The position numbers were made by a program, and so were the translations under genes. From the IMG/VR virus record IMGVR_UViG_3300048574_000038, positions 1 through 62,532 of that record: 62,532 bases of DNA, one strand, 5' to 3'. Positions 10,900-56,726 of the stretch are shown piece after piece (the stretch's first letter is position 1; each line of letters starts with the position of its first letter). The notes below the pieces were generated by a model. It saw only the letters and a list, made by a program, of their open reading frames with translations, did not search any database and was not told the origin of the DNA. This DNA comes from a virus. Lineage: Duplodnaviria; Caudoviricetes.

Positions 10900-11330
10900 A
10901 TCTCTGTGTATATTTATAAAATTTAGATTGATATTTATATCACCTCTATGTATATTTACTAAAGTTAGCTGTATATTTACAAAACTTAGATAAATAATTG
11001 ACCGAAGGGAAAAAGAAAAGGCCACCAATCTTTTCCTGATAATTCGGAGAAAACTGATGGCCAGTAGTGGGTATGAGAAGTACCAAAGGTACCATGAAGT
11101 TCTTTAAGCTACTTAAAGTAGTTTAATTATTTATAGTACTATATGTAGATAATAGCCTAGAACATATAGTATTATTATAATAAAATATAATATATTAAAG
11201 TATTTTAGTACTTTATGTAGATAAATTAACTATAAGTACTTGACATACTTATAGTATGTATTATAAGTACTTTAAGTTATTTAAGATAAATTTAAAGATC
11301 ATAATAGCCCGCCTTAAGTTTCTTAATTTC
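10900..11330. other. AT-rich non-coding region with short repeats and palindromes (candidate genome end or origin)
   Basis: TGTATATTTA x3 (10907, 10949, 10970), AGTACT/AAGTACTT palindromes, G-rich tract at about 10834-10890 just before. Confidence 0.5.
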
Positions 11331-11406
11331 CGAACTACGGTTATACTGCTTTTTGTTTTTAAAGAAGATAGTTGGTTGAACTGCCCTTTTACGAACTTTA
11401 ATATCT

Positions 11407-46935: not shown

Positions 46936-47295
46936 TTAGTCGTCTTCGTCCGAATCCTTCATAGGAAGGACTTCAGTAAGAGCTTCACGGATCTGTTCCG
47001 CATCCTCAATAGCAGTAGTCAGATACGGAAGCAACGTACGCGCGTCTTCAAGGGAGAGAGAAAGATAGTCGTCCTCGTTGCCAATGTTGATGCTTACGCT
47101 GTTGTCGAACTCTTCCACAGAATCAAGCCAATTGCCAGCACCAAGCCACGTACGAATAATTTTAACATCCGACGGCTTGCTCTTATTTCCGATAAATACC
47201 GCGCCTACGTTACCACGAGCTTCCCTATACTTGTCACTATCGTACACAGAAGACTTAGAGGAATCTGCACTTTTCTTAAAATCAAATTTAGACAT
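46936..47295 (-). CDS. Hypothetical acidic protein
   Basis: 119-aa ORF with AGGTAGG SD. Confidence 0.7.
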   Translation of the reverse strand: MSKFDFKKSADSSKSSVYDSDKYREARGNVGAVFIGNKSKPSDVKIIRTWLGAGNWLDSVEEFDNSVSINIGNEDDYLSLSLEDARTLLPYLTTAIEDAEQIREALTEVLPMKDSDEDD

Positions 47296-47345
47296 TTTGT
47301 ACCTACCTATCTGTTTATATTAATCAACTCTACAACTATGTCTAG

Positions 47346-47972
47346 TTAAGCAACCAGACCTTGCTCATTGTATTTACCTACACGATTGAGAAGCCATCCA
47401 CGGACATACTTACGGTAATCCGAACGACCAGAATTAGAGTTGCCAAGATTAATATACCAACTAACCTGCAACCCATCCATAGCCTTTCGGAGAACTTCTG
47501 TGTACTTGGGATTGTTACCAACATCTGCAAGACGTTGACGTGTAGCCGGGCCAACAGCCCCATCTACAACGAGATCACTACCGAACTGGTAGTTGTAATT
47601 GAGAGCATTGAGAGCCTGCTGCATAAGCTGTGTAGTTTTACCTACGCCAAGATTAACAGACTGGTCGAATATCTCATAAGCAAGACTGTAATCATTAATA
47701 GAGTCAAGTCCAAACTTGTCCCAAAAATTATATTTGTACCAAGATTCTCGAAGCTCGGCAATACGCTGATCTCCAGAGAGTGCATTAATGAATGCTGTGG
47801 AACCAGCACCGAACTGTGACTTGTAGCTATCAACAATAGCCCAACCAGCCCAGTTAGGGAAATTATTACGAGAGATACCAAAGACTGTTTCGCCACCAGT
47901 ATCATTCGCATCATTATCGTAGACACCTTCGATGCCTACAACTTGAGCATAACTAATCTTAAAATTTGACAT
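47346..47972 (-). CDS. Endolysin, glycoside hydrolase family 108 with peptidoglycan-binding domain
   Basis: EGVY.ND.ND.GGET.FGIS, FD.SVNLG, LQ.ALN, VDG.VGP.T, GWL.NR. Confidence 0.9.
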   Translation of the reverse strand: MSNFKISYAQVVGIEGVYDNDANDTGGETVFGISRNNFPNWAGWAIVDSYKSQFGAGSTAFINALSGDQRIAELRESWYKYNFWDKFGLDSINDYSLAYEIFDQSVNLGVGKTTQLMQQALNALNYNYQFGSDLVVDGAVGPATRQRLADVGNNPKYTEVLRKAMDGLQVSWYINLGNSNSGRSDYRKYVRGWLLNRVGKYNEQGLVA

Positions 47973-47993
47973 ACCTTACCTCAGATAAAAATA

Positions 47994-48618
47994 ACACTAG
48001 CTAGAGAACAATCTGTAGCAGCAAGCCATTTCAGGCTTTCCATTACATAATCACTCCCTAGCTAGTGTCTAGACCCAAGGTGCACCCGATGTGCAATGTT
48101 ACCACCTACGTGGCTGCAACCAGTTGGTAGAGACTGGCTGGAAATTTAACACGGTACCGTTTGCGATCGTACTCGTTGGTATGCCTGTACTATTACTAAC
48201 AACGATTTAGCTAACAACAGTACTTAGTTGTTGGTATGCTTCCCAACAACACTCGGATAGTGTTATCGACGAGACACATTATTAAGGTTGTGTAACCCAA
48301 ACACAGCAGTGCGTCCCTTGCGTGGAGGGACATACACCTACACATGTACGATATGATAATCGGTTAGCTGTTGATCACCGAGGTACAAGAGCTAGCGAAC
48401 TCTCTTTTAGCAGCCGTGTACCAGTAGGCTGGTGGATCTTACGCTATATCTATGATGTATCCACTACCATCACAGTTTGAACATTGGTGCGGGGCTTCGT
48501 TACTTCCCCTATCTTCTCCGAAGAATTTCTGGAATAGCACCATCGTCCGGCTGATACATTCAAACGAAGTCCAACCCTCACAGCTTTGGTTGGTTGCACT
48601 GTAGCCTATTATCTAGGC
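47994..48618 (-). ncRNA. Candidate large structured RNA F (about 625 nt)
   Basis: No ORF of 60 aa or more within it; more than a dozen stems, e.g. ACACTAGCTAG/CTAGCTAGTGT extended by several G-U pairs on the - strand, GTTTGAA/TTCAAAC enclosing TGGTGC/GCACCA. Confidence 0.72.
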
Positions 48619-48620
48619 AG

Positions 48621-48851
48621 CTAAAACGAGAGTTGGAAGTTCTCTCGTATAAATTTGTAGGCATCCTCACCGTCCAACTCATACAACTTGGCAACGATGT
48701 CTTCCAAACTTACCATCTTTTCCAGATGAGAAGCGTTGTAGAACGCCTGTCCTACGCGTTGCCCCTCATACTTACCGTTAGCAACGTCTTGCTTAAACTG
48801 TATGTACGAAGGGCCATGCAACAGAGGTCTTTGTTCATTTTGTATAAACAC
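48621..48851 (-). CDS. Hypothetical protein
   Basis: QRVGQAFYN motif; abuts the upstream gene. Confidence 0.6.
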   Translation of the reverse strand: MFIQNEQRPLLHGPSYIQFKQDVANGKYEGQRVGQAFYNASHLEKMVSLEDIVAKLYELDGEDAYKFIRENFQLSF

Positions 48852-49268
48852 TTATGCAGCCTCTGCAAAGTCCACACCACCAGTAGTGAACGCCTGCTTG
48901 ATAGCGGCGGCCAACGTAGTGATGGTCTGGTGAGGCAGCTTGAGATCGCAGATAGAGTTGATGGCTTCAATCGTCTCGTGAACGAAGGAAGTCTCGCACA
49001 CATCTTTGTAATTCTCGTCGTGCCAGTTAGTAATCGCGTTCTCACGAACGGAGAACTTGCCAAGAACATAGGAGTTCTTTACAGGAATGGTGTTTTCACA
49101 ACCACAAGCCGGGCAAGCCTTGTCTTCACTGCCGAAAGGCACGGGAAACTCAAGGTGAGCACCGTTAAACATGCACACAGGGCATGTATGCTTCTGGTAG
49201 ATAGGCTTGTCAACAATGGACACGCCCACTTCCTGACCAAGGATTTTCATAGATTTGGGGTACTTCAT
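48852..49268 (-). CDS. Zincin-like protein with Zn-ribbon insert
   Basis: GGAGG SD; P.S.KILG, CPVC/CPAC, SFVHETIEAI. Confidence 0.7.
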   Translation of the reverse strand: MKYPKSMKILGQEVGVSIVDKPIYQKHTCPVCMFNGAHLEFPVPFGSEDKACPACGCENTIPVKNSYVLGKFSVRENAITNWHDENYKDVCETSFVHETIEAINSICDLKLPHQTITTLAAAIKQAFTTGGVDFAEAA

Positions 49269-49331
49269 AGCGCACCTCCGAAGTTAAAGATGGAGGTTGG
49301 CAATATCGCCTTACAGCACCTCGGATACCTA

Positions 49332-50282
49332 CTATTCTTCGGTCTCCGTCTCCTCTGTTTTTGGAGAGTTTTTAGCAAGCCAGTCTTTGTACTGGTTGCA
49401 AAAATTATTTACACGACAGTACTTTTCACACCGTCTGCGAGTACCAGCACGTTCTTGAATACGAACATCACCGGCAAGATTCTTAAATTTGATGTACTCT
49501 TCCGCTTCTCGTTGTGACTTACAAAGCTTCATAGCTTTAGTAGCATTAGGACGATACACAGCGTATACTGCTGGACTTTCCCAACAATACTCTCTGTCGC
49601 AGAAAGGAAGAAGATCATCTGGAATATTCTCTGCATCAACATGATTCTTCAGCAGACGAAGATACAAACCTTCACGATCCTGCATAGACCACGCTTTACA
49701 AGAAAAGGATGCACAAGGAGCTTCTGGATAATCACCCGGTTGAGCGTACTGCAAACGACTATCACGCCAGTCACAATAGATGGCATTGATCGTGCACACG
49801 TCAACGGGATAACCCTCTTTCTCAAGGAAGTAGGCATTAATCATCAACTGATGTACCCACTCGTCTTTCATTTCCTTGCCGTGCATAAAAGTTGTAATTG
49901 TTTTATGGTCGTAAAGAGTCTTAGATTCTTTATCATAAGCATCAAACTTTGCACCAACTCTACGGTAGTCTTTTTCAGTACCACCTATGGGCTTGTCAAA
50001 GCGAATAAGACGACGTTCAACAAGGTACTTATCATTGTTGTTGAGCTTCTTTTCCATGTAATCATGGACAGCATTGCCAAAGAAACTGTACCAATTGTCA
50101 AAGAAGCCACTCTGCTCGATTTCGTCTTTATGCCTACGTTCAAGTTGAACTTGTCGAGGAGACTTGCACAGTACTGTAGCGCTGTACTCAAAAGGACGAG
50201 CAAGAGTCATATCGTCACGCTTAGCGTCAATCTCGATAACGTCTCGCATAATCTGCGGAACTATATTAATATTCGGAGTCAT
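49332..50282 (-). CDS. PD-(D/E)XK nuclease, Cas4-like exonuclease
   Basis: SAT.L.KSPR, GNAVH, E.R, G.KFD, YDHK, Q...Y, C-terminal RC..YC....FC. Confidence 0.8.
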   Translation of the reverse strand: MTPNINIVPQIMRDVIEIDAKRDDMTLARPFEYSATVLCKSPRQVQLERRHKDEIEQSGFFDNWYSFFGNAVHDYMEKKLNNNDKYLVERRLIRFDKPIGGTEKDYRRVGAKFDAYDKESKTLYDHKTITTFMHGKEMKDEWVHQLMINAYFLEKEGYPVDVCTINAIYCDWRDSRLQYAQPGDYPEAPCASFSCKAWSMQDREGLYLRLLKNHVDAENIPDDLLPFCDREYCWESPAVYAVYRPNATKAMKLCKSQREAEEYIKFKNLAGDVRIQERAGTRRRCEKYCRVNNFCNQYKDWLAKNSPKTEETETEE

Positions 50283-50285
50283 TAC

Positions 50286-50945
50286 CTAATACTCAATGTC
50301 GTCAAAAATTACAGGAATACTGGCTTTAAGATCATCCAGAAGCGGACACATAAGTTCACGCATCTGCGGGTGAGCAGCTTTAGAAGTACGAAGCTTAAGG
50401 ATGTGTCGCCACTCTCGAAGATTAGCAGTCATTACAACTTCTGTTTTCAAACAAGTAGGAAGCACACAACGTGCAACTTGTGGAGAGCATCCATGAAGAA
50501 GCAACTGTTTATAACAAAGTTCAGCAGCGTTGACTGCGTTATACCAATGTTGCTTTTTTGTGTATACCTGTTCCTTCTCTGCAAAAGAAACGTCTTCGTA
50601 CTTAACAAACGGTGGCAGAAAACTAGGTTGGATAACCGTAATATTATCTTCATCTGTGCTACCGTAGTTGCAATACCGTGTACTCTCTTGCGAAAAAGAG
50701 GCAAGTCTGTGTCGTACAAGTTCGTGACTCACACCACGATCGCAGATGAATCGTACTGTAAGCATGCTGTGCTCCAGTACAGACTCGTGCCCACGACGAA
50801 CAATCTGCTCAAGAAAGTCTACAAAAGATGTATCTGTAGTTCTCTCTTCGGACTTGTAACAAACACGTCCGGCAGCCTCGATAAGTTTCATATCTTCCTT
50901 AGAAGGAAGCTTTTCAATTTTATAACTAGCGTCTATAGTATTCAT
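50286..50945 (-). CDS. thyX: FAD-dependent thymidylate synthase
   Basis: GHESVLEH, SHELVRHR..SFSQESTRY, NLREWRH...LR....AHPQMR. Confidence 0.95.
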   Translation of the reverse strand: MNTIDASYKIEKLPSKEDMKLIEAAGRVCYKSEERTTDTSFVDFLEQIVRRGHESVLEHSMLTVRFICDRGVSHELVRHRLASFSQESTRYCNYGSTDEDNITVIQPSFLPPFVKYEDVSFAEKEQVYTKKQHWYNAVNAAELCYKQLLLHGCSPQVARCVLPTCLKTEVVMTANLREWRHILKLRTSKAAHPQMRELMCPLLDDLKASIPVIFDDIEY

Positions 50946-51032
50946 ACTACCTCAATAAAAATACGGATAATGCTATGCCAAAAGGTAATGCACTATCCGT
51001 ACTAGTCAAGGTACTATAAATACCGAAATGTG

Positions 51033-51109
51033 TGGCAGCAGCGCTAGGATTCGAACCTAGGAATAACCGAGTCAAAGTCGGTTGTGTTAAACCACTTCAC
51101 CACGCTGCT
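51033..51109 (-). tRNA. tRNA-Gln(UUG)
   Basis: Acceptor AGCAGCG/CGCTGCT, anticodon arm ACCGA-CTTTGAC-TCGGT, T arm CTAGG-TTCGAAT-CCTAG, encoded CCA. Confidence 0.92.
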
Positions 51110-51111
51110 AC

Positions 51112-51510
51112 ATCTGGTAGGATAACCTGTTGTGGACTTTTGCTGGATCACACTCCTTCCAGTTATCCTACCAGTTCACCAAGCACAACGCTTGGATAAA
51201 TTCCTCCACCTAACTAGCGCCCTCACGTTACTAGTTACTAGTCAGATGGAGGCACGGCCCTTACAAGGAGGGAGAGTAAGGAGGCTTGCCGTGTAATTTG
51301 TTGGCTACCCAGACCGCCGAGACAGGGTAGCCATTCGTCCATGCGAGGGAGTAGGCACACGACGAAAATTTGTGGCACTAGCAACATGCTACGAGGCTAT
51401 CCTCCTTGTCGATTATACATGTCACTGTGCCAGTAGTTCAGTTTTAACAGCCAGTTATTATCAAACGCCGTACTGCGGTGTCCGGAACATACCGAACTAA
51501 CTGAACAATA
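51112..51510 (-). ncRNA. Candidate structured RNA G (about 400 nt) filling the tRNA-Thr/tRNA-Gln spacer
   Basis: Eight back-to-back hairpins; + strand A-C mismatches become G-U pairs on the - strand (51203-51252, 51373-51432); complementary loops. Confidence 0.8.
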
Positions 51511-51513
51511 AAA

Positions 51514-51589
51514 TGGAGCTAGCGAAGGGACTTGAACCCATAACCCCCTGATTACAAATCAGGCGCTCTGCCAATTGAGCTACGCTAGC
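51514..51589 (-). tRNA. tRNA-Thr(UGU)
   Basis: GCTAGCG/CGCTAGC acceptor, CCTGA-TTTGTAA-TCAGG anticodon arm, GTTCAAGTC T loop, CCA. Confidence 0.93.
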
Positions 51590-51599
51590 AAAAGAAATT

Positions 51600-51684
51600 T
51601 GGTGCGAGAGGTGGGATTTGAACCCACACGCCTTTCAGCAGCGGGGTTTAAAGCCGCCCTGTCTACCGTTCCATACACTCTCGC
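51600..51684 (-). tRNA. tRNA-Leu(UAA)
   Basis: GCGAGAG/CTCTCGC acceptor, loop TTTAAAC, long variable arm, GTGGG-TTCAAAT-CCCAC, A discriminator, CCA; C-C mismatch in the anticodon stem. Confidence 0.85.
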
Positions 51685-52554
51685 TTAATCTTTATCGTAT
51701 CTGGCACGTACAAATCTCGGGTGTCGTAGTGCTTTGCCTGTTTTGCCTTTAAAGGCTACTTCGATAATCTTCGGTAGATCCTCGCGGTGTTCCCACCAAT
51801 GACGAAGCTGTTCATGTGTGGCTTTACCCGGCGCTACAATACATGTATCGCACAAGAACTTACCTACGCAACCAGTAAGCTTTCCTTTACCTTCAACTAC
51901 ACCCGTAACAAGCAAATCTTCTGTGTGATGGATAAGACCCTTAACCCAAAGTTTGCAAGACTTCTTACCCTGCTCATACAAGGAGTCACGCTTTTTAAAT
52001 ACGACACCTTCCCATTTACTGTGGGCAATCACATTCTTTACAAAGCTACGTATCTTATCAGGTGTATGTTTTGCCTCCATAGCAAAAGCAACAACACAAT
52101 ATACGGGTTCTGTTGAAAGAATCTCTGCGTCCGCCATAGCCATCCATAATGTATCCTTGCGCACATTATAAGGCATGTTATTGACAACGATGTCAAAAAT
52201 TTGATAAGTTAGCTTTGTTGTGTCTACGTTTACTTCGCGAAACAGTTGTTCCGAGGCATCTTTAAATTCTGTTCCACAAACTTCCCCATCAAAAACTACA
52301 GGAAACGGTATATGCTTTTGGATTCTTTTACAGACCTCTTTAAGGAAGTCGAAATTTTTGTATACTGTGCCGGTGCGAGAATAACACTCGTCTGTGTTAG
52401 GATCATACAAGCAGCGAACGCCGTCGAATTTACGCTCATATACCCATTCTTCCGGACGAAAATCTGGAGAATCTAAAAGTTTGTCTAAATCAGGATGTGG
52501 CTGGAGCGTTTTAACAGGTTTCGTTGCTTTATCTTTAATTTTACTCACATCCAT
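51685..52554 (-). CDS. ATP-dependent DNA ligase
   Basis: E.KFDGVR, FDGE, IFDI, EGVVFK, W.K, LRHPRF..R.DK. Confidence 0.92.
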   Translation of the reverse strand: MDVSKIKDKATKPVKTLQPHPDLDKLLDSPDFRPEEWVYERKFDGVRCLYDPNTDECYSRTGTVYKNFDFLKEVCKRIQKHIPFPVVFDGEVCGTEFKDASEQLFREVNVDTTKLTYQIFDIVVNNMPYNVRKDTLWMAMADAEILSTEPVYCVVAFAMEAKHTPDKIRSFVKNVIAHSKWEGVVFKKRDSLYEQGKKSCKLWVKGLIHHTEDLLVTGVVEGKGKLTGCVGKFLCDTCIVAPGKATHEQLRHWWEHREDLPKIIEVAFKGKTGKALRHPRFVRARYDKD

Positions 52555-53074: not shown

Positions 53075-55138
53075 CTAAAGCCAATCTTTATATAAGCCCT
53101 TGAGCTTATCTGTCAACATGTCAAACATAACAAAGCTATTAATTGTACCATAAGTAACTTCGCTAGCTTTAAATTCTGTCTTAAGATCACCGTAGGTTTT
53201 ACCTATAGCTACTTCACATGTAATAGGAATACCCATATCGTAATCAAAATACTTTTTAACTAGCTGCGGAATACTTTCAAAAGCTTTTGTGCAAATGCTT
53301 GATACAAGCCACACTTCTTCTGGTGGACAATCAAAGACCAAAGAGTCATGCACTTGCAGGATAACCTGTGATTTCAAATTAAGTGCAGTAATAGTCTTGT
53401 AGATTTCGTACATAGCCACAAGCATACAGTCCGTAGAGAATGACTGCACAGGGTAATTACAGACCTGTTGTGGACTGTAACCCAATGGGCCATCATCTGG
53501 ATTGGTGTTGTTCTTAAACGTAAGAACTCTACCACTTGGACTACGCAAATACTTCTGCTTGTCAAGCAATCTTTTATTAGCAAGCTGCCATGCACGAAGA
53601 CCCTTATACTTTTTATAAAAGTCCTGCACGATTTCTTCGTACTTATGCAATGGAAAGTCAGGCATGTTGCCATCGTAAAAGAAAGCTTTCGCAGTACCAC
53701 CGTAAATCATACGGAAGTTAAATGTCTTTGACGCCTGCCGCATAGCTTTAAATTCTTTACTATGTGGATCTAGGTTATCCCCACCAAAAGAACGTTTAGC
53801 TCTATCTGTATGTACGTCAAAGTTGTGCCAGAGTTCCTCACACATGATGGGATCTCTGCTCAAACAACCAGCATTACGCCACTCGATCTGTGACAAGTCG
53901 GCATTGACGATATAGCCAAGTTGACTCTTGATAAGTTTTTTAATCGGGGAAGTACCAGATCTAGGAAAGTTCTGGCCATTTGGGTTTGAAGAAGACAAAC
54001 GACCTGTACGAGTGACTGTTTGATTAAATCTAGGGTGCAAGCGACTACGCTTATCTACCTTGCTAACCAAACCTTTATCATTCGTTTCATCATCATCTGC
54101 TTCATCGCTGCCAATGAGTGTAGACACAACTTTCTGCGTAACAGATACATCATTCAGGAGTTTTATGAAATCTTTCTGTTTAGGTGTAGAAGCTTTAAGC
54201 AAAGCTCGAGCTTTCTTCCCGGTAGAGTACCTACCAGTCTTCTTGCTAAAACTCTGCTCACTAGGTTCAAAACCTAAACCATCATACGGGTACTCCATCA
54301 CAGCTTTGCGTGTATACACGCGAAAGGTGCCATCTTTGCGTTGCTTAGCAACCAACTCCTGCACTTCTTTCTTTAGTGTGCCACCATACATAACAGTTTC
54401 CATCTGCACACTTGACTTGTGTGAAAACGGAACGCCTGCCAGTACTTGCATATCTTTACGCAACACGGCAACTTTCTCTTTGTACTCTGCTCCGTACTTC
54501 TTTGCCTCTTTGGCATCAAAATACAAACCATTATACTCCATGCGCGCCAGCATCTTAGTCAACTGCATTGCAAAATACGCAATCTTGTCAACTCCAGCTT
54601 TCTTAAGCTCGTTGTACTGACGCAAGAATAGTTGCTTTGTAAGATGAACGTCTTGCCGCACATACTTATCGTGCACGTCAAATGGAATTTCATCGGTCTC
54701 AAAACCGTTATCCCAAAAGTCAGCCATGTCTCCGACTTTCTGTCCCAACTTCCTACGCCTTGCACAAGCATTCATGTTGAGAGCAACGTCAGGATTCTGA
54801 CCGTAAAGCATGTAGTCACCGAGCATAGTACACCACACTTCTTTGTGGTCAAACTCAATGCCCATGTGAATGAGCCAAGCTAAATCGTATTTAGCATTAT
54901 GGAAAATAAGCAGATCTGCGGCATCAATGCGCGCTTGCATTTCGGCAAGCATCTTCTTGTGCGGACGAATTGGTTCGGATACATGATTGAACAACCAGAC
55001 TGTGCTGGTGTCCTGCATGTGTGTATCTGGCATGTCTATTTCGCCGGACTCCATACACCAAGAGCAGATGTATGCTTTACTATCCCACGGCTCACTGTGA
55101 GGCAGTTTTGTTGCCTCGGAGTCTAAGACTTCAAACAT
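53075..55138 (-). CDS. DNA polymerase family A with 3'-5' exonuclease
   Basis: Exonuclease DSE, HNAKYD, YVRQD; TGRLSSSNPN, ADLSQIE, RQASK.FNF..IYG, NYPVQS, QVHDS. Confidence 0.95.
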   Translation of the reverse strand: MFEVLDSEATKLPHSEPWDSKAYICSWCMESGEIDMPDTHMQDTSTVWLFNHVSEPIRPHKKMLAEMQARIDAADLLIFHNAKYDLAWLIHMGIEFDHKEVWCTMLGDYMLYGQNPDVALNMNACARRRKLGQKVGDMADFWDNGFETDEIPFDVHDKYVRQDVHLTKQLFLRQYNELKKAGVDKIAYFAMQLTKMLARMEYNGLYFDAKEAKKYGAEYKEKVAVLRKDMQVLAGVPFSHKSSVQMETVMYGGTLKKEVQELVAKQRKDGTFRVYTRKAVMEYPYDGLGFEPSEQSFSKKTGRYSTGKKARALLKASTPKQKDFIKLLNDVSVTQKVVSTLIGSDEADDDETNDKGLVSKVDKRSRLHPRFNQTVTRTGRLSSSNPNGQNFPRSGTSPIKKLIKSQLGYIVNADLSQIEWRNAGCLSRDPIMCEELWHNFDVHTDRAKRSFGGDNLDPHSKEFKAMRQASKTFNFRMIYGGTAKAFFYDGNMPDFPLHKYEEIVQDFYKKYKGLRAWQLANKRLLDKQKYLRSPSGRVLTFKNNTNPDDGPLGYSPQQVCNYPVQSFSTDCMLVAMYEIYKTITALNLKSQVILQVHDSLVFDCPPEEVWLVSSICTKAFESIPQLVKKYFDYDMGIPITCEVAIGKTYGDLKTEFKASEVTYGTINSFVMFDMLTDKLKGLYKDWL

Positions 55139-55171: not shown

Positions 55172-55438
55172 TTAAAGATTCATTTGCTTTTTAAGCTTTG
55201 CTATCTGCGCATCAACACTTGCAAGCGCTTTTTCATCTTGCCTGATACGGTTAGATAAGACTTCTCGCTTCTTAAGCAAGGCATCGTACTGTTGTTTATG
55301 TGCCCGAGTTGACTGTACTCCTCTTTGCTGTGCAGCCAACTTGGCACCGGGTACTCGTGCGAACACGATATCCGCGATGGTGTTAAGCAGCCATGTAAGC
55401 CAGTCTGTCCGGGGCTGTGTCGCTTGGGATGTTTCCAT
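55172..55438 (-). CDS. Small coiled-coil protein
   Basis: GGAG SD; C-terminal heptads; overlaps the helicase 3' end. Confidence 0.55.
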   Translation of the reverse strand: METSQATQPRTDWLTWLLNTIADIVFARVPGAKLAAQQRGVQSTRAHKQQYDALLKKREVLSNRIRQDEKALASVDAQIAKLKKQMNL

Positions 55439-56726
55439 AGGCTAACTCCAGCTCCTTGTACGTCGGTTCCCTGTATAAAGCTCGGGATGTGTCGATGATT
55501 GCTTCAAATTGGGCATGATTACCAGTACCCAACTTGTTCTTGCAAAGATGCATATAGCGAATATCAACAGCACCACTAATGGAATCTCCGAAAAGTTTGC
55601 CAATACCAATGATGTAGTCAAACTCACCCGGCTTAAGTGTCTTAGAGCTATCAAGGTCTGTGGGAAGAAGCCACTTCTTGTTCTCCGCAGATTGTGAAGC
55701 TTGGCCAACAGTGAGCACATGCACATCATACTTCTTCGATATTTCACGAAGTTTAGCATAAACCATTTGAAGTCTCGCAACGTCACCTAGTTTAGAGTGA
55801 CCTGTAAAGACAAGCTTATCTGCTTGGTCAACTACAATAATGCGAGCGTTACAGTTCTTTAGTTCTTCTTCAATATCTTCAATAGAGATAATAGCATCGT
55901 CGTAAAGTTTAAAGCGATTGCCACCTTTAGCATAAAATTCTTTCTTACACCTATCTGGAAATTTTGCGAGGGTGTCTTTATCAATATTAAGAAAAGCTTG
56001 ATAAAAACGTTTCATCAACTTCTTACCATCTTCTTCATTATTAAAATGAATGAGGCATTCATCATCTTTGAGTTGCTTTACCCAATAAGATTCTTCCGAG
56101 AACACAAAGGATGTTTTACCTGTATCAACACGAGCGAATATGTGGCCAAGTGTCTTACCAACAATATCTCCAAGATGCTCGTTAAGCGAGGGCAGTCTCC
56201 ACTTAAAGCCGGGACGCTCCTCTTGCTCACGAATGATCTCTTCAATATCCGTAGTCACGAACTTGCTGTCTTTATCAACAAGACGCAGCTTTGCGGCATC
56301 AAATTCGTCAATAGTTTTCTTTACCTCTTCAAGAACTTCCCGCTCGTCATTTTCAATTGCGGAGGAAAGTTTGAAGAGAATTTCGGAACTGTAATACTTT
56401 TCAAGCAAACTATTAAAATTTTCTTTAATTAAAACCGAATCAACTTTAAGAGTTTCAAGTTTTTGAAAAAGTTCGGAATATAGTTCTCTTTTCTTTATTA
56501 ACGGATTCCTTAAAGAATTATAAATAATCAACTCTGAAATTAGTATGTTTTCCTTATCAGGAAATTCTTTATAGTAATCCGTAATAGAATTAAGCACCGT
56601 GGATGTTTCTTGTTCCAGATTAAATTCTTTAATGTACCGAATATACTTATTATAATTCTCCTTGTTAGTTAAGAACTTTAACAGCGCTATTTCCTGCATT
56701 GCCTCATTAACATTGATATCTGACAT
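55383..56726 (-). CDS. DnaB-like (SF4) replicative helicase
   Basis: FARVDTGKT Walker A, FNNEE, IVVDQAD Walker B, GQAS, KNK. Confidence 0.9.
   Translation of the reverse strand: MSDINVNEAMQEIALLKFLTNKENYNKYIRYIKEFNLEQETSTVLNSITDYYKEFPDKENILISELIIYNSLRNPLIKKRELYSELFQKLETLKVDSVLIKENFNSLLEKYYSSEILFKLSSAIENDEREVLEEVKKTIDEFDAAKLRLVDKDSKFVTTDIEEIIREQEERPGFKWRLPSLNEHLGDIVGKTLGHIFARVDTGKTSFVFSEESYWVKQLKDDECLIHFNNEEDGKKLMKRFYQAFLNIDKDTLAKFPDRCKKEFYAKGGNRFKLYDDAIISIEDIEEELKNCNARIIVVDQADKLVFTGHSKLGDVARLQMVYAKLREISKKYDVHVLTVGQASQSAENKKWLLPTDLDSSKTLKPGEFDYIIGIGKLFGDSISGAVDIRYMHLCKNKLGTGNHAQFEAIIDTSRALYREPTYKELELAYGNIPSDTAPDRLAYMAA

What the first reader, a model, noticed from the sequence alone, without database searches (positions are those of the whole stretch)
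51112..51510. tRNA-flanked eight-hairpin RNA with SD and anti-SD loops that can kiss
Seen: hairpins at 51114-51174, 51179-51195, 51203-51252, 51253-51293, 51302-51333, 51334-51366, 51373-51432 and 51436-51506 abut with very short linkers. The - strand loops include UCUCCCUCCUU, CUACUCCCUC, CAAGGAGGAU and GUGAGGG. Positions 51263-51271 and 51401-51409 are perfect 9-nt complements; GUGAGGG/CCCUCGC gives a second possible loop-loop pair. Known: tRNA maturation (RNase P plus 3' processing) would release this spacer with defined ends. Inference: either a compact or oligomerising RNA held by kissing loops, or an array of SD-masking antisense RNAs or a GGA-motif sponge for CsrA/RsmA.
Basis: partly seen in the sequence, partly recalled or inferred. 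Interest (0 to 1): 0.85.

Follow-up and report, generated by a model that had tools for sequence, protein, structure and literature searches.

The report
Structured RNA inside phage tRNA cluster
A 404-base gap between transfer-RNA genes of a wastewater phage folds into eight stable hairpins and is probably a non-coding RNA of unknown job, but the proposed loop-to-loop 'kissing' is no more than chance would give.

Summary
Window 51110-51513 lies between tRNA-Thr and tRNA-Gln on the minus strand of a 62.5-kb phage contig. All eight hairpins fold where stated. The minus-strand fold is far beyond shuffles (z -6.9, 0 of 100). The plus strand folds worse (z -3.3), and 15 G.U pairs favour the tRNA strand.

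No ORF is credible. Every ORF of 30 aa or more is hit by a single-base indel in a wastewater relative. All 11 differences listed for relatives in the spacer spare the robust stems, and three strengthen or add a pair (simulated chance about 0.001).

No Rfam family matches, ROOL, GOLLD and Csr/Rsm models included. No DNA similarity was found in phage, plasmid or E. coli collections. 33 capsid-related phage records lack the element and almost all lack tRNAs, so it is a lineage-specific accessory module.

- A perfect 9-nt complement arises in 20% of shuffles.
- The loop-loop duplex energies are matched by 56-69% of random loop sets.
- The second proposed kiss is not conserved.
- GGA is exposed at only two sites.

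Best reading: a new, tRNA-operon-embedded stable structured phage RNA, released by tRNA processing. Its position matches T4 RNAC/RNAD and ROOL/GOLLD. Function is unknown.

The parts
51600..51684 (-). tRNA-Leu(UAA). It starts one base after the stop codon of the ATP-dependent ligase gene (51685-52554).
   Evidence: ARAGORN; Rfam tRNA model 39.2 bits; ligase domains
51514..51589 (-). tRNA-Thr(UGU) with encoded CCA. Its 3' processing would make the 5' end of the spacer RNA.
   Evidence: 69.3 bits; sequence
51110..51513 (-). The 404-nt structured non-coding spacer RNA. It is a chain of eight hairpins with 0-8 nt linkers. GC is 50% against 44% for the contig.
   Evidence: fold z -6.94; hairpins; 123 pairs with 15 G.U; GC values; no Rfam hit
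51436..51506 (-). H1: an 8-bp closing stem around a three-way junction with two sub-hairpins. It closes the 5' end.
   Evidence: -20.2 kcal/mol, z -2.3
51373..51432 (-). H2: a 16-bp stem with a 26-nt apical region holding AAGGAGG. A 4-bp GAGG/CCUC mini-helix can form inside that region.
   Evidence: -24.4, z -4.2
51334..51366 (-). H3: a short hairpin with the pyrimidine loop CUACUCCCUC (9 of 10 pyrimidines). The loop is shortened by different 1-nt deletions in two relatives.
   Evidence: deletions at 51346 and 51354
51302..51333 (-). H4: a 9-bp perfect stem that abuts H3 with no linker. Relatives carry G instead of U at 51311, which adds a tenth (U.G) pair.
   Evidence: (I11)
51253..51293 (-). 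H5: a hairpin with the all-pyrimidine loop UCUCCCUCCUU (11 of 11) and a second CCUCCUU in its 5' arm and internal loop.
51203..51252 (-). H6: a 16-bp stem, -26.7 kcal/mol on the minus strand against -13.8 on the plus strand. The loop holds GUGAGGG. It abuts H5. The G.U pair 51209/51246 is G-C in relatives.
51179..51195 (-). H7: a 6-bp hairpin with a 5-nt loop. In the MFE fold it is replaced by a long-range helix to the H1 region.
51114..51174 (-). H8: a 14-bp stem (13 perfect Watson-Crick pairs) with a 33-nt purine-rich apical region holding GGAAGGAG. It closes the 3' end, 4 nt before tRNA-Gln.
   Evidence: (I2)
51033..51109 (-). tRNA-Gln(UUG). RNase P cleavage at its 5' end would make the 3' end of the spacer RNA.
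   Evidence: 65.2 bits
50954..51003 (-). A 14-bp terminator-like hairpin followed by a U-rich tract. It lies between tRNA-Gln and thyX and is the likely end of the tRNA/spacer transcription unit.
   Evidence: fold of 50940-51034, z -6.54, 0 of 200 shuffles; no listed variant in its arms

Best explanation
Window 51110-51513 (minus strand) is a genuine non-coding, highly structured RNA of about 400 nt.

It is made as part of one transcript: ligase gene, tRNA-Leu, tRNA-Thr, this RNA, tRNA-Gln, then a terminator-like hairpin. Host tRNA maturation would cut it free. That means endonuclease and exonuclease trimming behind the CCA of tRNA-Thr and RNase P in front of tRNA-Gln. Stable stems lie 7 nt from its 5' end (H1) and 4 nt from its 3' end (H8), so it should persist as a stable RNA.

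Shown here: the fold, its strand, the absence of a conserved reading frame, and stems spared by strain-level variation. Also shown: the whole tRNA-plus-RNA module is an accessory insertion of this phage lineage.

Inferred: co-transcription, release by processing, and stability.

Function is not known. My committed guess, at about 25% within this reading, is a trans-acting RNA that works through its exposed pyrimidine loops (UCCC/CCUCC, like the anti-Shine-Dalgarno word, recalled) and its purine-rich AAGGAGG-type loops. It would pair with ribosome-binding sites or with the 30S subunit, or titrate an RNA-binding protein. The remainder is a stable RNA of a function not yet guessable, as for T4 RNAC/RNAD and ROOL/GOLLD.
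For: Fold and strand:
- Minus-strand fold z -6.94, 0 of 100 shuffles, against z -3.27 on the plus strand.
- All eight hairpins were confirmed. Summed energy is -144.8 kcal/mol on the minus strand and -118.9 on the plus strand.
- The model has 123 pairs, with 15 G.U and no A.C 1x1 mismatches on the minus strand.
- The region ranks among the most structured minus-strand windows of the contig after GC adjustment.

Non-coding:
- Pfam and PHROGs find nothing significant for the ORFs tested, 5 in Pfam and 3 in PHROGs; the one Pfam match, ankyrin repeats at E 0.012-0.04, is below its cut-off.
- The 49-aa ORF has no homologue among 5.8 billion proteins.
- Single-base indels in relatives at 51138, 51346, 51354 and 51485 break every ORF of 30 aa or more.

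Structural constraint in relatives:
- All 11 differences listed in the spacer (5 substitutions, 6 indels) lie outside robust helices or keep a pair.
- 51246 turns G.U into G-C, 51315 turns U.G into U-A, and 51311 turns U.U into U.G.
- The simulated chance of this pattern is 0.0014.

Divergence:
- In run X17 the contig over tRNA-Gln, the spacer and the 3' part of tRNA-Thr differs at 26 of 541 positions. The thyX contig differs at 71 of 474.
- In run X14 the spacer pieces differ by 8-10%, and the thyX and ligase pieces by 6-17%.

Transcription unit: a terminator-like hairpin lies behind tRNA-Gln.

Precedents, from passages read:
- T4 RNAC and RNAD come from the tRNA region (PMC3014915).
- ROOL and GOLLD are encoded in phages near tRNA islands (bioRxiv 10.1101/2024.12.08.627333; PMC5737381).
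- tRNA-operon spacers can be functional RNAs (bioRxiv 10.1101/2021.04.25.441314).
- Unpaired UCCC loops bind Shine-Dalgarno sites (PMC2790875).
Against: - Only one lineage carries the element. 0 of 33 capsid-related phage records have a real match.
- 1 of 24 of those records has any tRNA, and 0 of the 8 that are at least 90% complete.
- In 5 of 5 relatives checked, thyX is directly preceded by a gene. The element is therefore dispensable for the family.
- No two-sided compensatory change was seen. All supporting changes are one-sided.
- The variant list is truncated: 117 differences over the 2-kb stretch were not shown. Only 4 of the 26 differences of the X17 contig and 3 of the 14 of the X14 contig were visible.
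- In X14 the spacer is not more conserved than the coding flanks.
- Transcription, processing and stability were not shown.
- No target, partner or host is known.
Confidence: 0.6

Rival explanations
1. Passive structured filler. The hairpins act only in cis within the tRNA precursor. They keep neighbouring tRNAs from misfolding, give nuclease entry or stop points, or are left over from the insertion event. The excised piece has no function of its own and is degraded.
For: The element is absent from 33 related phage records. No partner, target or homologue was found. Loop sequences drift in relatives, with deletions in the H3 loop and a substitution in the H6 loop.
Against: 404 nt is kept in a densely packed 62.5-kb genome. 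The tRNA-Leu/tRNA-Thr pair in the same cluster is separated by only 10 nt, and the four tRNAs of relative G025 are 5-12 nt apart, so phage tRNAs do not need such a spacer. Stems are spared by variation. Divergence is no higher than in coding flanks.
Confidence: 0.2
2. Self-assembling or compact RNA held by kissing loops, as in ROOL and GOLLD cages. H2 AAGGAGG pairs with H5 CCUCCUU. Further purine and pyrimidine loops (H6, H8 with H3, H5) pair within or between molecules.
For: Three purine-rich and three pyrimidine-rich exposed elements are mutually complementary. CCUCC and GGAGG words are 12-60 times enriched over the contig's rate. No variant is listed inside either 9-mer (truncated list). 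ROOL and GOLLD sit near phage tRNAs and use kissing loops.
Against: The complementarity is within chance: 404 of 2000 shuffles have a 9-nt complement, and 558-692 of 1000 random loop sets equal the best duplex. The H6-H3 pair is broken in relatives without compensation. There is no match to ROOL or GOLLD models. The predicted architecture is a simple chain of hairpins, not an ornate multi-junction fold.
Confidence: 0.07
3. DNA-level element. The inverted repeats act as cruciforms or protein sites for replication, recombination or packaging inside the replication module.
For: It lies between replication genes (helicase, polymerase, ligase, thyX). The plus strand also folds better than shuffles (z -3.27).
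Against: Strand asymmetry: 15 G.U pairs, which would be A.C mismatches on the other strand. H6 folds at -26.7 against -13.8 kcal/mol. There are no iterons or direct repeats longer than 16 nt. GC is above the contig mean. Relatives change G.U to G-C on the tRNA strand.
Confidence: 0.04
4. Small protein gene. The AAGGAGG in the H2 loop is a real ribosome-binding site for the 49-aa ORF 51387-51238, whose AUG lies 13 nt downstream.
For: It is one of only three AAGGAGG on the minus strand of the contig. An ATG-started ORF with a hydrophobic N-terminus follows (translation read by eye).
Against: Single-base deletions at 51346 (X17, depth 6.3) and 51354 (X14, depth 8.7) shift the frame. There is no Pfam or PHROG family and no homologue among 5.8 billion proteins. 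The spacing of 13 nt is long. The ORF runs through five stable hairpins.
Confidence: 0.03
5. CsrA/RsmA sponge that titrates the host regulator through GGA motifs in loops.
For: AAGGA-type motifs are exposed in H2 and H8.
Against: Only 4 of 9 GGA, at 2 sites about 250 nt apart, lie outside robust stems. No Csr/Rsm family matches even at E 10. Two of the loops are pure pyrimidine. The host is unknown.
Confidence: 0.03
6. Decayed tRNA genes. The gap once held about five more tRNAs that have degenerated.
For: 404 nt is about five tRNA lengths. H1 is 71 nt with a closing stem and two arms. Two hairpins end in GCCA followed by CAAAUU, like the tRNA-Leu end (family D2).
Against: The tRNA model finds nothing in the spacer at E up to 10, and ARAGORN finds nothing. 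Decay would not create perfect 13-16-bp stems or a fold at z -6.9. Stems are kept in relatives.
Confidence: 0.03

Closest known systems
ROOL and GOLLD large ornate RNAs of phages and prophages
   Same: They are large structured non-coding RNAs encoded by phages, often next to or co-transcribed with tRNAs, and of unknown function. Their higher-order structure uses kissing loops (passages read).
   Different: No match to either Rfam model. The size is 404 nt against about 581 nt and over 800 nt. The predicted fold is a linear chain of hairpins with one three-way junction, not many multistem junctions and pseudoknots. The element is confined to one phage lineage rather than several phyla. Assembly is untested.
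T4 RNAC and RNAD (small stable RNAs of the T4 tRNA region)
   Same: They are non-tRNA RNAs transcribed from a phage tRNA cluster, with unknown biological roles (PMC3014915 passage).
   Different: About three times longer, on sizes of about 120-140 nt that I recall and did not read. No DNA similarity to any record of the phage collection. I assume but did not check that T4 is in that collection. Expression is not shown here.
Spacer-derived RNAs of bacterial tRNA operons (3'ETS of glyW-cysT-leuZ; internal spacers)
   Same: A by-product of tRNA operon processing that acts in trans by base pairing (passage in bioRxiv 10.1101/2021.04.25.441314).
   Different: Those are short, host-encoded, Hfq-associated sponges with known sRNA partners. 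This one is phage-encoded, 404 nt and far more structured, and no partner is known.
UCCC-loop regulatory RNAs of Firmicutes (RsaE, RNAIII, LhrC)
   Same: They carry unpaired C-rich UCCC motifs in hairpin loops that pair with Shine-Dalgarno sequences (PMC2790875 passages). H3 and H5 carry such loops.
   Different: No homology. The endolysin domains suggest to me a Gram-negative host (inference from recalled knowledge). No target preference was found among the phage's own start regions.
CsrB/RsmZ-type protein sponges
   Same: A chain of hairpins with some GGA-containing loops.
   Different: Only two exposed GGA sites, no model match, and pyrimidine loops that have no place in a CsrA sponge.

Membership tests
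ROOL RNA | Match to the Rfam covariance model | tested here: not met
   cmscan of 50900-51750, both strands, E up to 10. The only hits touch the tRNAs; none lies in the spacer. Nothing at gathering score.
ROOL RNA | [quoted passage not shown] | tested here: not met
   404 nt. The MFE and centroid folds show eight mostly simple hairpins and one three-way junction. Pseudoknots cannot be predicted with the tools used.
ROOL / GOLLD | Phage or prophage context, often beside tRNAs | tested here: met
   Viral contig, 94% complete. The element is flanked by three tRNAs.
GOLLD RNA | Match to the Rfam covariance model; many members exceed 800 nt | tested here: not met
   No hit. Length is 404 nt.
ROOL / GOLLD | Homo-oligomeric cage held by kissing loops and A-minor contacts | not testable with these tools
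   Loop complementarity exists but is within chance. No RNA 3D or assembly tool was available.
CsrB/RsmY/RsmZ sponges | Many GGA motifs exposed in hairpin loops | tested here: not met
   9 GGA in total. Only 4, at 2 sites (H2 and H8 apical regions), lie outside robust stems.
CsrB/RsmY/RsmZ sponges | Match to an Rfam Csr/Rsm model | tested here: not met
   No hit at E up to 10.
tRNA or tRNA pseudogene | Cloverleaf recognised by the tRNA covariance model or ARAGORN | tested here: not met
   No tRNA-model hit inside 51110-51513 at E up to 10. ARAGORN finds only the three flanking tRNAs.
T4 RNAC/RNAD-like stable RNAs | Transcribed from the phage tRNA cluster and accumulating as a stable RNA | not testable with these tools
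   The position fits. Contigs of RNA libraries cover it, but the tool states that this does not show transcription.
T4 RNAC/RNAD-like stable RNAs | Sequence similarity | tested here: not met
   No blastn match in 50,697 phage records at E up to 1.
tRNA-operon spacer sponges (3'ETS/ITS type) | Derived from a transcribed spacer of a tRNA operon | tested here: met
   It lies between tRNA-Thr and tRNA-Gln on their strand. A terminator-like hairpin appears only after tRNA-Gln.
tRNA-operon spacer sponges (3'ETS/ITS type) | Base-pairs with defined sRNAs or mRNAs | not testable with these tools
   Host unknown. The phage's own start regions give no signal.
UCCC-motif SD-binding sRNAs | Unpaired UCCC in hairpin loops | tested here: met
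   The H3 loop CUACUCCCUC and the H5 loop UCUCCCUCCUU are unpaired in the folds. UCCC is kept after both loop deletions in relatives (my reading).
UCCC-motif SD-binding sRNAs | Pairing to Shine-Dalgarno regions of targets | tested here: inconclusive
   Best duplexes with 71 phage start regions are -18.5 and -17.2 kcal/mol. Shuffled loops give -15.2 and -15.4 with sd 2.1. Host mRNAs are not available.

The most novel reading that the evidence does not exclude
A previously unseen class of tRNA-operon-embedded phage RNA that, once cut out by tRNA processing, folds compactly or assembles into multimers. It would do so through Shine-Dalgarno-like and anti-Shine-Dalgarno-like loop-loop pairs (H2 with H5; H6 and H8 with H3 and H5). 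That would make it a small, independent counterpart of the ROOL/GOLLD cages, possibly engaging 30S subunits or ribosome-binding sites during infection.
Probability: 0.07. Interest if true: 0.85.

Novelty: new variant of a known kind. Interest (0 to 1): 0.42.

Why it matters
Phage tRNA clusters repeatedly harbour non-tRNA RNAs whose roles remain unknown after decades (T4 RNAC/RNAD) or despite atomic structures (ROOL, GOLLD). This would be a third, unrelated example. It is small enough (404 nt) for probing and cryo-EM. It has defined ends set by tRNA processing and unusual anti-SD-like and SD-like exposed loops. That would give a tractable system to ask what such RNAs do.

It also shows that tRNA-plus-RNA modules move as accessory cassettes. 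Capsid relatives at 81% identity lack the whole module.

The case is limited. There is one lineage, no deep covariation and no expression data, so for now it is a candidate and not a discovery.

Tried and rejected
Homologue searches that found nothing:
- Rfam at gathering score and at E up to 10.
- blastn against phages, plasmids and E. coli genomes.
- nhmmer and blastn of the spacer against 80, then 172 fetched loci.
- Exact-word scans of viral contigs with a 21-nt word from H5 and a 29-nt word from tRNA-Gln: 0 hits each.
- The two 9-mers with a 110-140 nt gap gave 12 loci. All are unrelated: none has a tRNA, none is similar, and their folds are unrelated. I rejected them as chance.

Searches through neighbouring proteins:
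- ThyX relatives in viral and metagenome contigs reach only 58-60% identity. None carries homologues of the window's other five neighbouring genes tested: ligase, polymerase, helicase, exonuclease, the 136-aa ORF and endolysin.
- The ligase and the polymerase have no close relative in viral contigs.
- The ligase in GTDB genomes gave only 25% hits in Brevibacterium.
- An alignment of 12 ligase homologues found one 40% relative in viral contigs. It has one tRNA-Leu and no spacer.
- The polymerase is under 30% identical to cultured phages.

Capsid relatives: 80 loci. 33 of their records were searched with the spacer: 0 real matches, and 3 trivial ones of 14-25 nt.

Analogous cases: among 288 loci only one other same-strand tRNA pair has a 150-1200 nt gap (L129). 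It has no Rfam hit in the gap and is overlapped by ORFs, so I did not pursue it.

Target search: the H3 and H5 loops against the phage's own 71 start regions do no better than shuffled loops.

RNA-library cover:
- Run X15 has a 251-nt contig over tRNA-Gln plus the last 122 nt of the spacer, and no cover of thyX, the ligase gene or the rest of the spacer.
- Run X17 has a 557-nt contig from 50997 to 51537.
- The tool states that contigs of RNA libraries do not show transcription and that uncovered parts prove nothing. I draw no conclusion on expression or ends.

Other points:
- Runs with small shares that I did not lay (X16, X18-X20) are not used for habitat.
- A sigma-70-like match inside the spacer (51484-51457, 9 of 12) is within the shuffle expectation.
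- Supplementary files of papers were not consulted. The supplements of PMC5737381 (the full list of 224 motifs) could hold a similar motif, but all curated ones should be in Rfam 15.
- I did not build a covariance model. The 404-nt length exceeds the practical calibration limit, and no plausible sequence set remained to search.
Full report
CONTEXT
The window is a single viral record of 62,532 bases, estimated 94% complete, with 43.9% GC. The finding lies in the minus-strand replication module. The gene order is DnaB-like helicase (55383-56726), family A DNA polymerase (53075-55138), ATP-dependent ligase (51685-52554), then tRNA-Leu(UAA), tRNA-Thr(UGU), the 404-nt interval 51110-51513 and tRNA-Gln(UUG). 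ThyX (50286-50945) and an exonuclease (49332-50282) follow. tRNA-Leu starts one base after the ligase stop codon, and only 10 nt separate tRNA-Leu from tRNA-Thr. The 404-nt gap is therefore exceptional within its own cluster.

THE OBSERVATION
All eight hairpins fold at the coordinates given, with 0-8 nt linkers.
- The whole interval on the minus strand has an MFE of -156.8 kcal/mol against -120.7 +/- 5.2 for shuffles. That is z -6.94, with 0 of 100 shuffles as good.
- The plus strand gives z -3.27.
- The eight hairpins sum to -144.8 kcal/mol on the minus strand and -118.9 on the plus strand.
- The local-hairpin model has 123 pairs, including 15 G.U, and no A.C single mismatches.
- The RNA strand is therefore that of the tRNAs, and the signal is at the RNA level, not a DNA palindrome effect.
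- In a GC-adjusted scan of the whole contig, the windows over tRNA-Gln and the spacer are among the most structured on the minus strand.
- The quoted loops and the 9-nt complement (51263-51271 with 51401-51409) are present.

WHAT IS AND IS NOT BEYOND CHANCE
The folding is beyond chance. The enrichment of CCUCC, CCUCCUU and GGAGG words is too: 3, 2 and 2 copies against 0.17, 0.03 and 0.16 expected from the contig's minus-strand rate. So are the two almost purely pyrimidine loops, 11 of 11 and 9 of 10.

The complementarity is not.
- A perfect 9-nt complement turns up in 404 of 2000 dinucleotide shuffles.
- The best loop-loop duplexes are H2-H8 at -11.7, H2-H5 at -11.3 and H5-H8 at -10.1 kcal/mol. 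They are equalled in 558-692 of 1000 random loop sets under three null models.
- The loops can pair. That fact alone carries no evidential weight.

NOT CODING
- The only ORF with a plausible ribosome-binding site is the 49-aa minus-strand ORF 51387-51238, with AAGGAGG 13 nt before the ATG.
- Pfam and PHROGs find no significant family for the ORFs tested, five in Pfam and three in PHROGs. The only match is a sub-threshold ankyrin-repeat hit (E 0.012-0.04, below cut-off) for the 55-aa plus-strand ORF 51032-51199.
- The 49-aa ORF has no homologue in 5.8 billion proteins.
- Relatives in wastewater runs carry single-base indels at 51138, 51346, 51354 and 51485. Between them these shift every ORF of 30 aa or more in the interval (ORF list; indels).

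RELATIVES AT STRAIN LEVEL
- 20 public runs from 13 studies hold part of the stretch, and 14 hold 42-68% of its words.
- I laid four runs from four studies: one sludge run and three wastewater runs. Their contigs are 83-100% identical.
- X17: the contig over tRNA-Gln, the spacer and the 3' part of tRNA-Thr differs at 26 of 541 positions (4.8%). Its thyX contig differs at 71 of 474 (15%).
- X14: the spacer pieces differ at 14 of 167 and 12 of 117. The thyX pieces differ at 10 of 142, 6 of 98 and 11 of 87, and the ligase piece at 17 of 103.
- The spacer thus evolves no faster than the flanking genes, and in one strain three times slower. A neutral spacer would be expected to diverge faster than coding sequence. 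That expectation is my inference.
- Eleven differences in the spacer were listed. Mapped on the fold, seven lie in loops or linkers.
- One deletes an A in the weak apical part of H8, and one inserts a base at a loop edge.
- 51246 turns a G.U pair of H6 into G-C, and 51315 turns U.G into U-A. In addition, 51311, counted among the seven loop or linker changes because it lies in a 1x1 mismatch, turns U.U next to the H4 stem into U.G.
- None disrupts a helix of 4 bp or more. A simulation of five substitutions and six indels placed at random gives this outcome with probability 0.0014.
- Caveats: the tool showed only the best-supported differences (117 over the 2-kb stretch were hidden). No two-sided compensatory change was seen.

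THE KISSING LOOPS IN RELATIVES
No difference is listed in either 9-mer. Because the list is truncated, this says little.

The second proposed pair fares badly. The first G of GUGAGGG is U in contigs of X1, X14 and X15 (51226). The U of CCCUCGC is deleted in X17 (51346), while X17 keeps GUGAGGG. X14 has a different deletion in the same loop (51354).

RELATIVES AT FAMILY LEVEL
- The ligase and the polymerase have no close relative in IMG/VR.
- The major head protein does: 91, 81, 80 and 78% identity, then many at 66% on contigs of 61-62 kb.
- 0 of 33 such records have a real match to the spacer.
- 1 of 24 has any tRNA, and 0 of the 8 that are at least 90% complete.
- 5 of 5 checked have thyX at 48-56% identity. 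In each, a gene on the same strand directly precedes it, with no tRNA and no large gap.
- The three tRNAs plus the RNA are therefore an accessory cassette of this lineage. In the relatives checked there is neither a tRNA nor a large gap upstream of thyX.
- Closer relatives of the ligase exist in ENA and Logan assemblies: 97%, 64% and 56-59% identity.

TRANSCRIPTION UNIT
The 87 nt between tRNA-Gln and thyX fold into a long hairpin (z -6.54, 0 of 200 shuffles). Its inner 14-bp stem is followed by a U-rich tract, which is terminator-like. Its outer helices pair the thyX Shine-Dalgarno sequence and start codon with upstream bases. No listed variant falls in the inner stem. I infer that the tRNAs and the RNA form the distal end of a transcript coming from the replication genes.

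MECHANISM
Established knowledge of bacterial tRNA maturation implies release of the interval. That means endonucleolytic cuts in AU-rich trailers, 3' exonucleolytic trimming and RNase P at the 5' end. This is not tested here.
- The RNA would start in the U-rich trailer behind the CCA of tRNA-Thr, 7 nt before H1.
- It would end 4 nt after the 14-bp stem of H8, leaving little single strand for 3' exonucleases.
- Two internal linkers read CAAAUU, as does the trailer of tRNA-Leu (family D2). They resemble the RNase E preference that I recall. The RNA might therefore be cut further into pieces of about 140, 70 and 190 nt. This is speculation.
- What the RNA then does is unknown.
- Exposed UCCC/CCUCC loops are the signature of Shine-Dalgarno-binding regulatory RNAs in Firmicutes. 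The phage's own genes use short GAGG, AGGA or AAGG sites: 14, 13 and 10 of 38 inspected starts.
- I found no preferred target among the phage start regions, and the host is unknown.

COMPARISON WITH KNOWN SYSTEMS
- By position and kind it resembles T4 RNAC/RNAD and ROOL/GOLLD.
- By biogenesis it resembles spacer-derived RNAs of bacterial tRNA operons.
- It is not a member of ROOL, GOLLD, Csr/Rsm, tRNA or any other Rfam 15 family.
- It has no sequence relative in the collections searched.

VERDICT
The element is most likely a real, lineage-specific, structured non-coding RNA embedded in a phage tRNA operon. Interest is moderate. It is a new, unrelated instance of a known and still unexplained kind, resting on one lineage and strain-level evidence only.

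Noticed in passing
window 47973-48593 (minus strand): A second long ORF-poor region (621 nt) lies upstream of the GH108 endolysin gene. It folds at -209.8 kcal/mol, z -5.74, with 0 of 20 shuffles as good. Near its 3' end is a hairpin of about 25 bp followed by a U-rich tract, just before the endolysin ribosome-binding site. It has no credible Rfam hit in 47000-49500 at E up to 1 (one chance-level match at E 0.98, outside this region) and no match in the phage collection.
   Followed up: partly
window 50940-51021 (minus strand): The thyX leader folds into a long hairpin (z -6.54). An upstream UACCUUGA pairs with the thyX Shine-Dalgarno sequence, and further bases pair with the start codon. This suggests translational control or a terminator/anti-terminator choice. 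In run X14 the outermost helix carries three uncompensated changes (51016, 51018, 51019), while the inner stems show none.
   Followed up: partly
window 50444-50664 (inside thyX): In runs X14 and X1, contigs join 50444/50448 to 50664/50661. In X14, 228 unlike letters replace 219. This is a swapped or highly diverged central segment of thyX in some wastewater strains (table 5).
   Followed up: no
window 10901-11400 (plus strand): A very AT-rich stretch (GC 24.5-28%) is the most structured plus-strand window after GC adjustment. It may be a regulatory or origin region between divergent gene blocks.
   Followed up: no
whole window against G003-G034: The genome is a mosaic. Head protein relatives reach 78-91% identity. 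The ligase and polymerase have no close counterpart in the same collection, and the ligase is absent or only 23-27% identical in five relatives. ThyX is 48-56% identical. All three tRNAs read A-ending codons (UUA, ACA, CAA), as is usual for an AT-rich phage.
   Followed up: partly
G025:C1:284-620 (loci L278-L281): The only capsid relative with tRNAs carries four of them in a tight array, with 5-12 nt spacers, at a contig end. This contrasts with the 404-nt spacer here.
   Followed up: no
window 51295-51303, 51367-51375, 51596-51604: A 9-nt word (minus strand C[AC]NCAAAUU) follows hairpins H4 and H2 and the 3' end of tRNA-Leu. Both hairpins begin with UGGC and end with GCCA. These are possible shared processing sites.
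   Followed up: no
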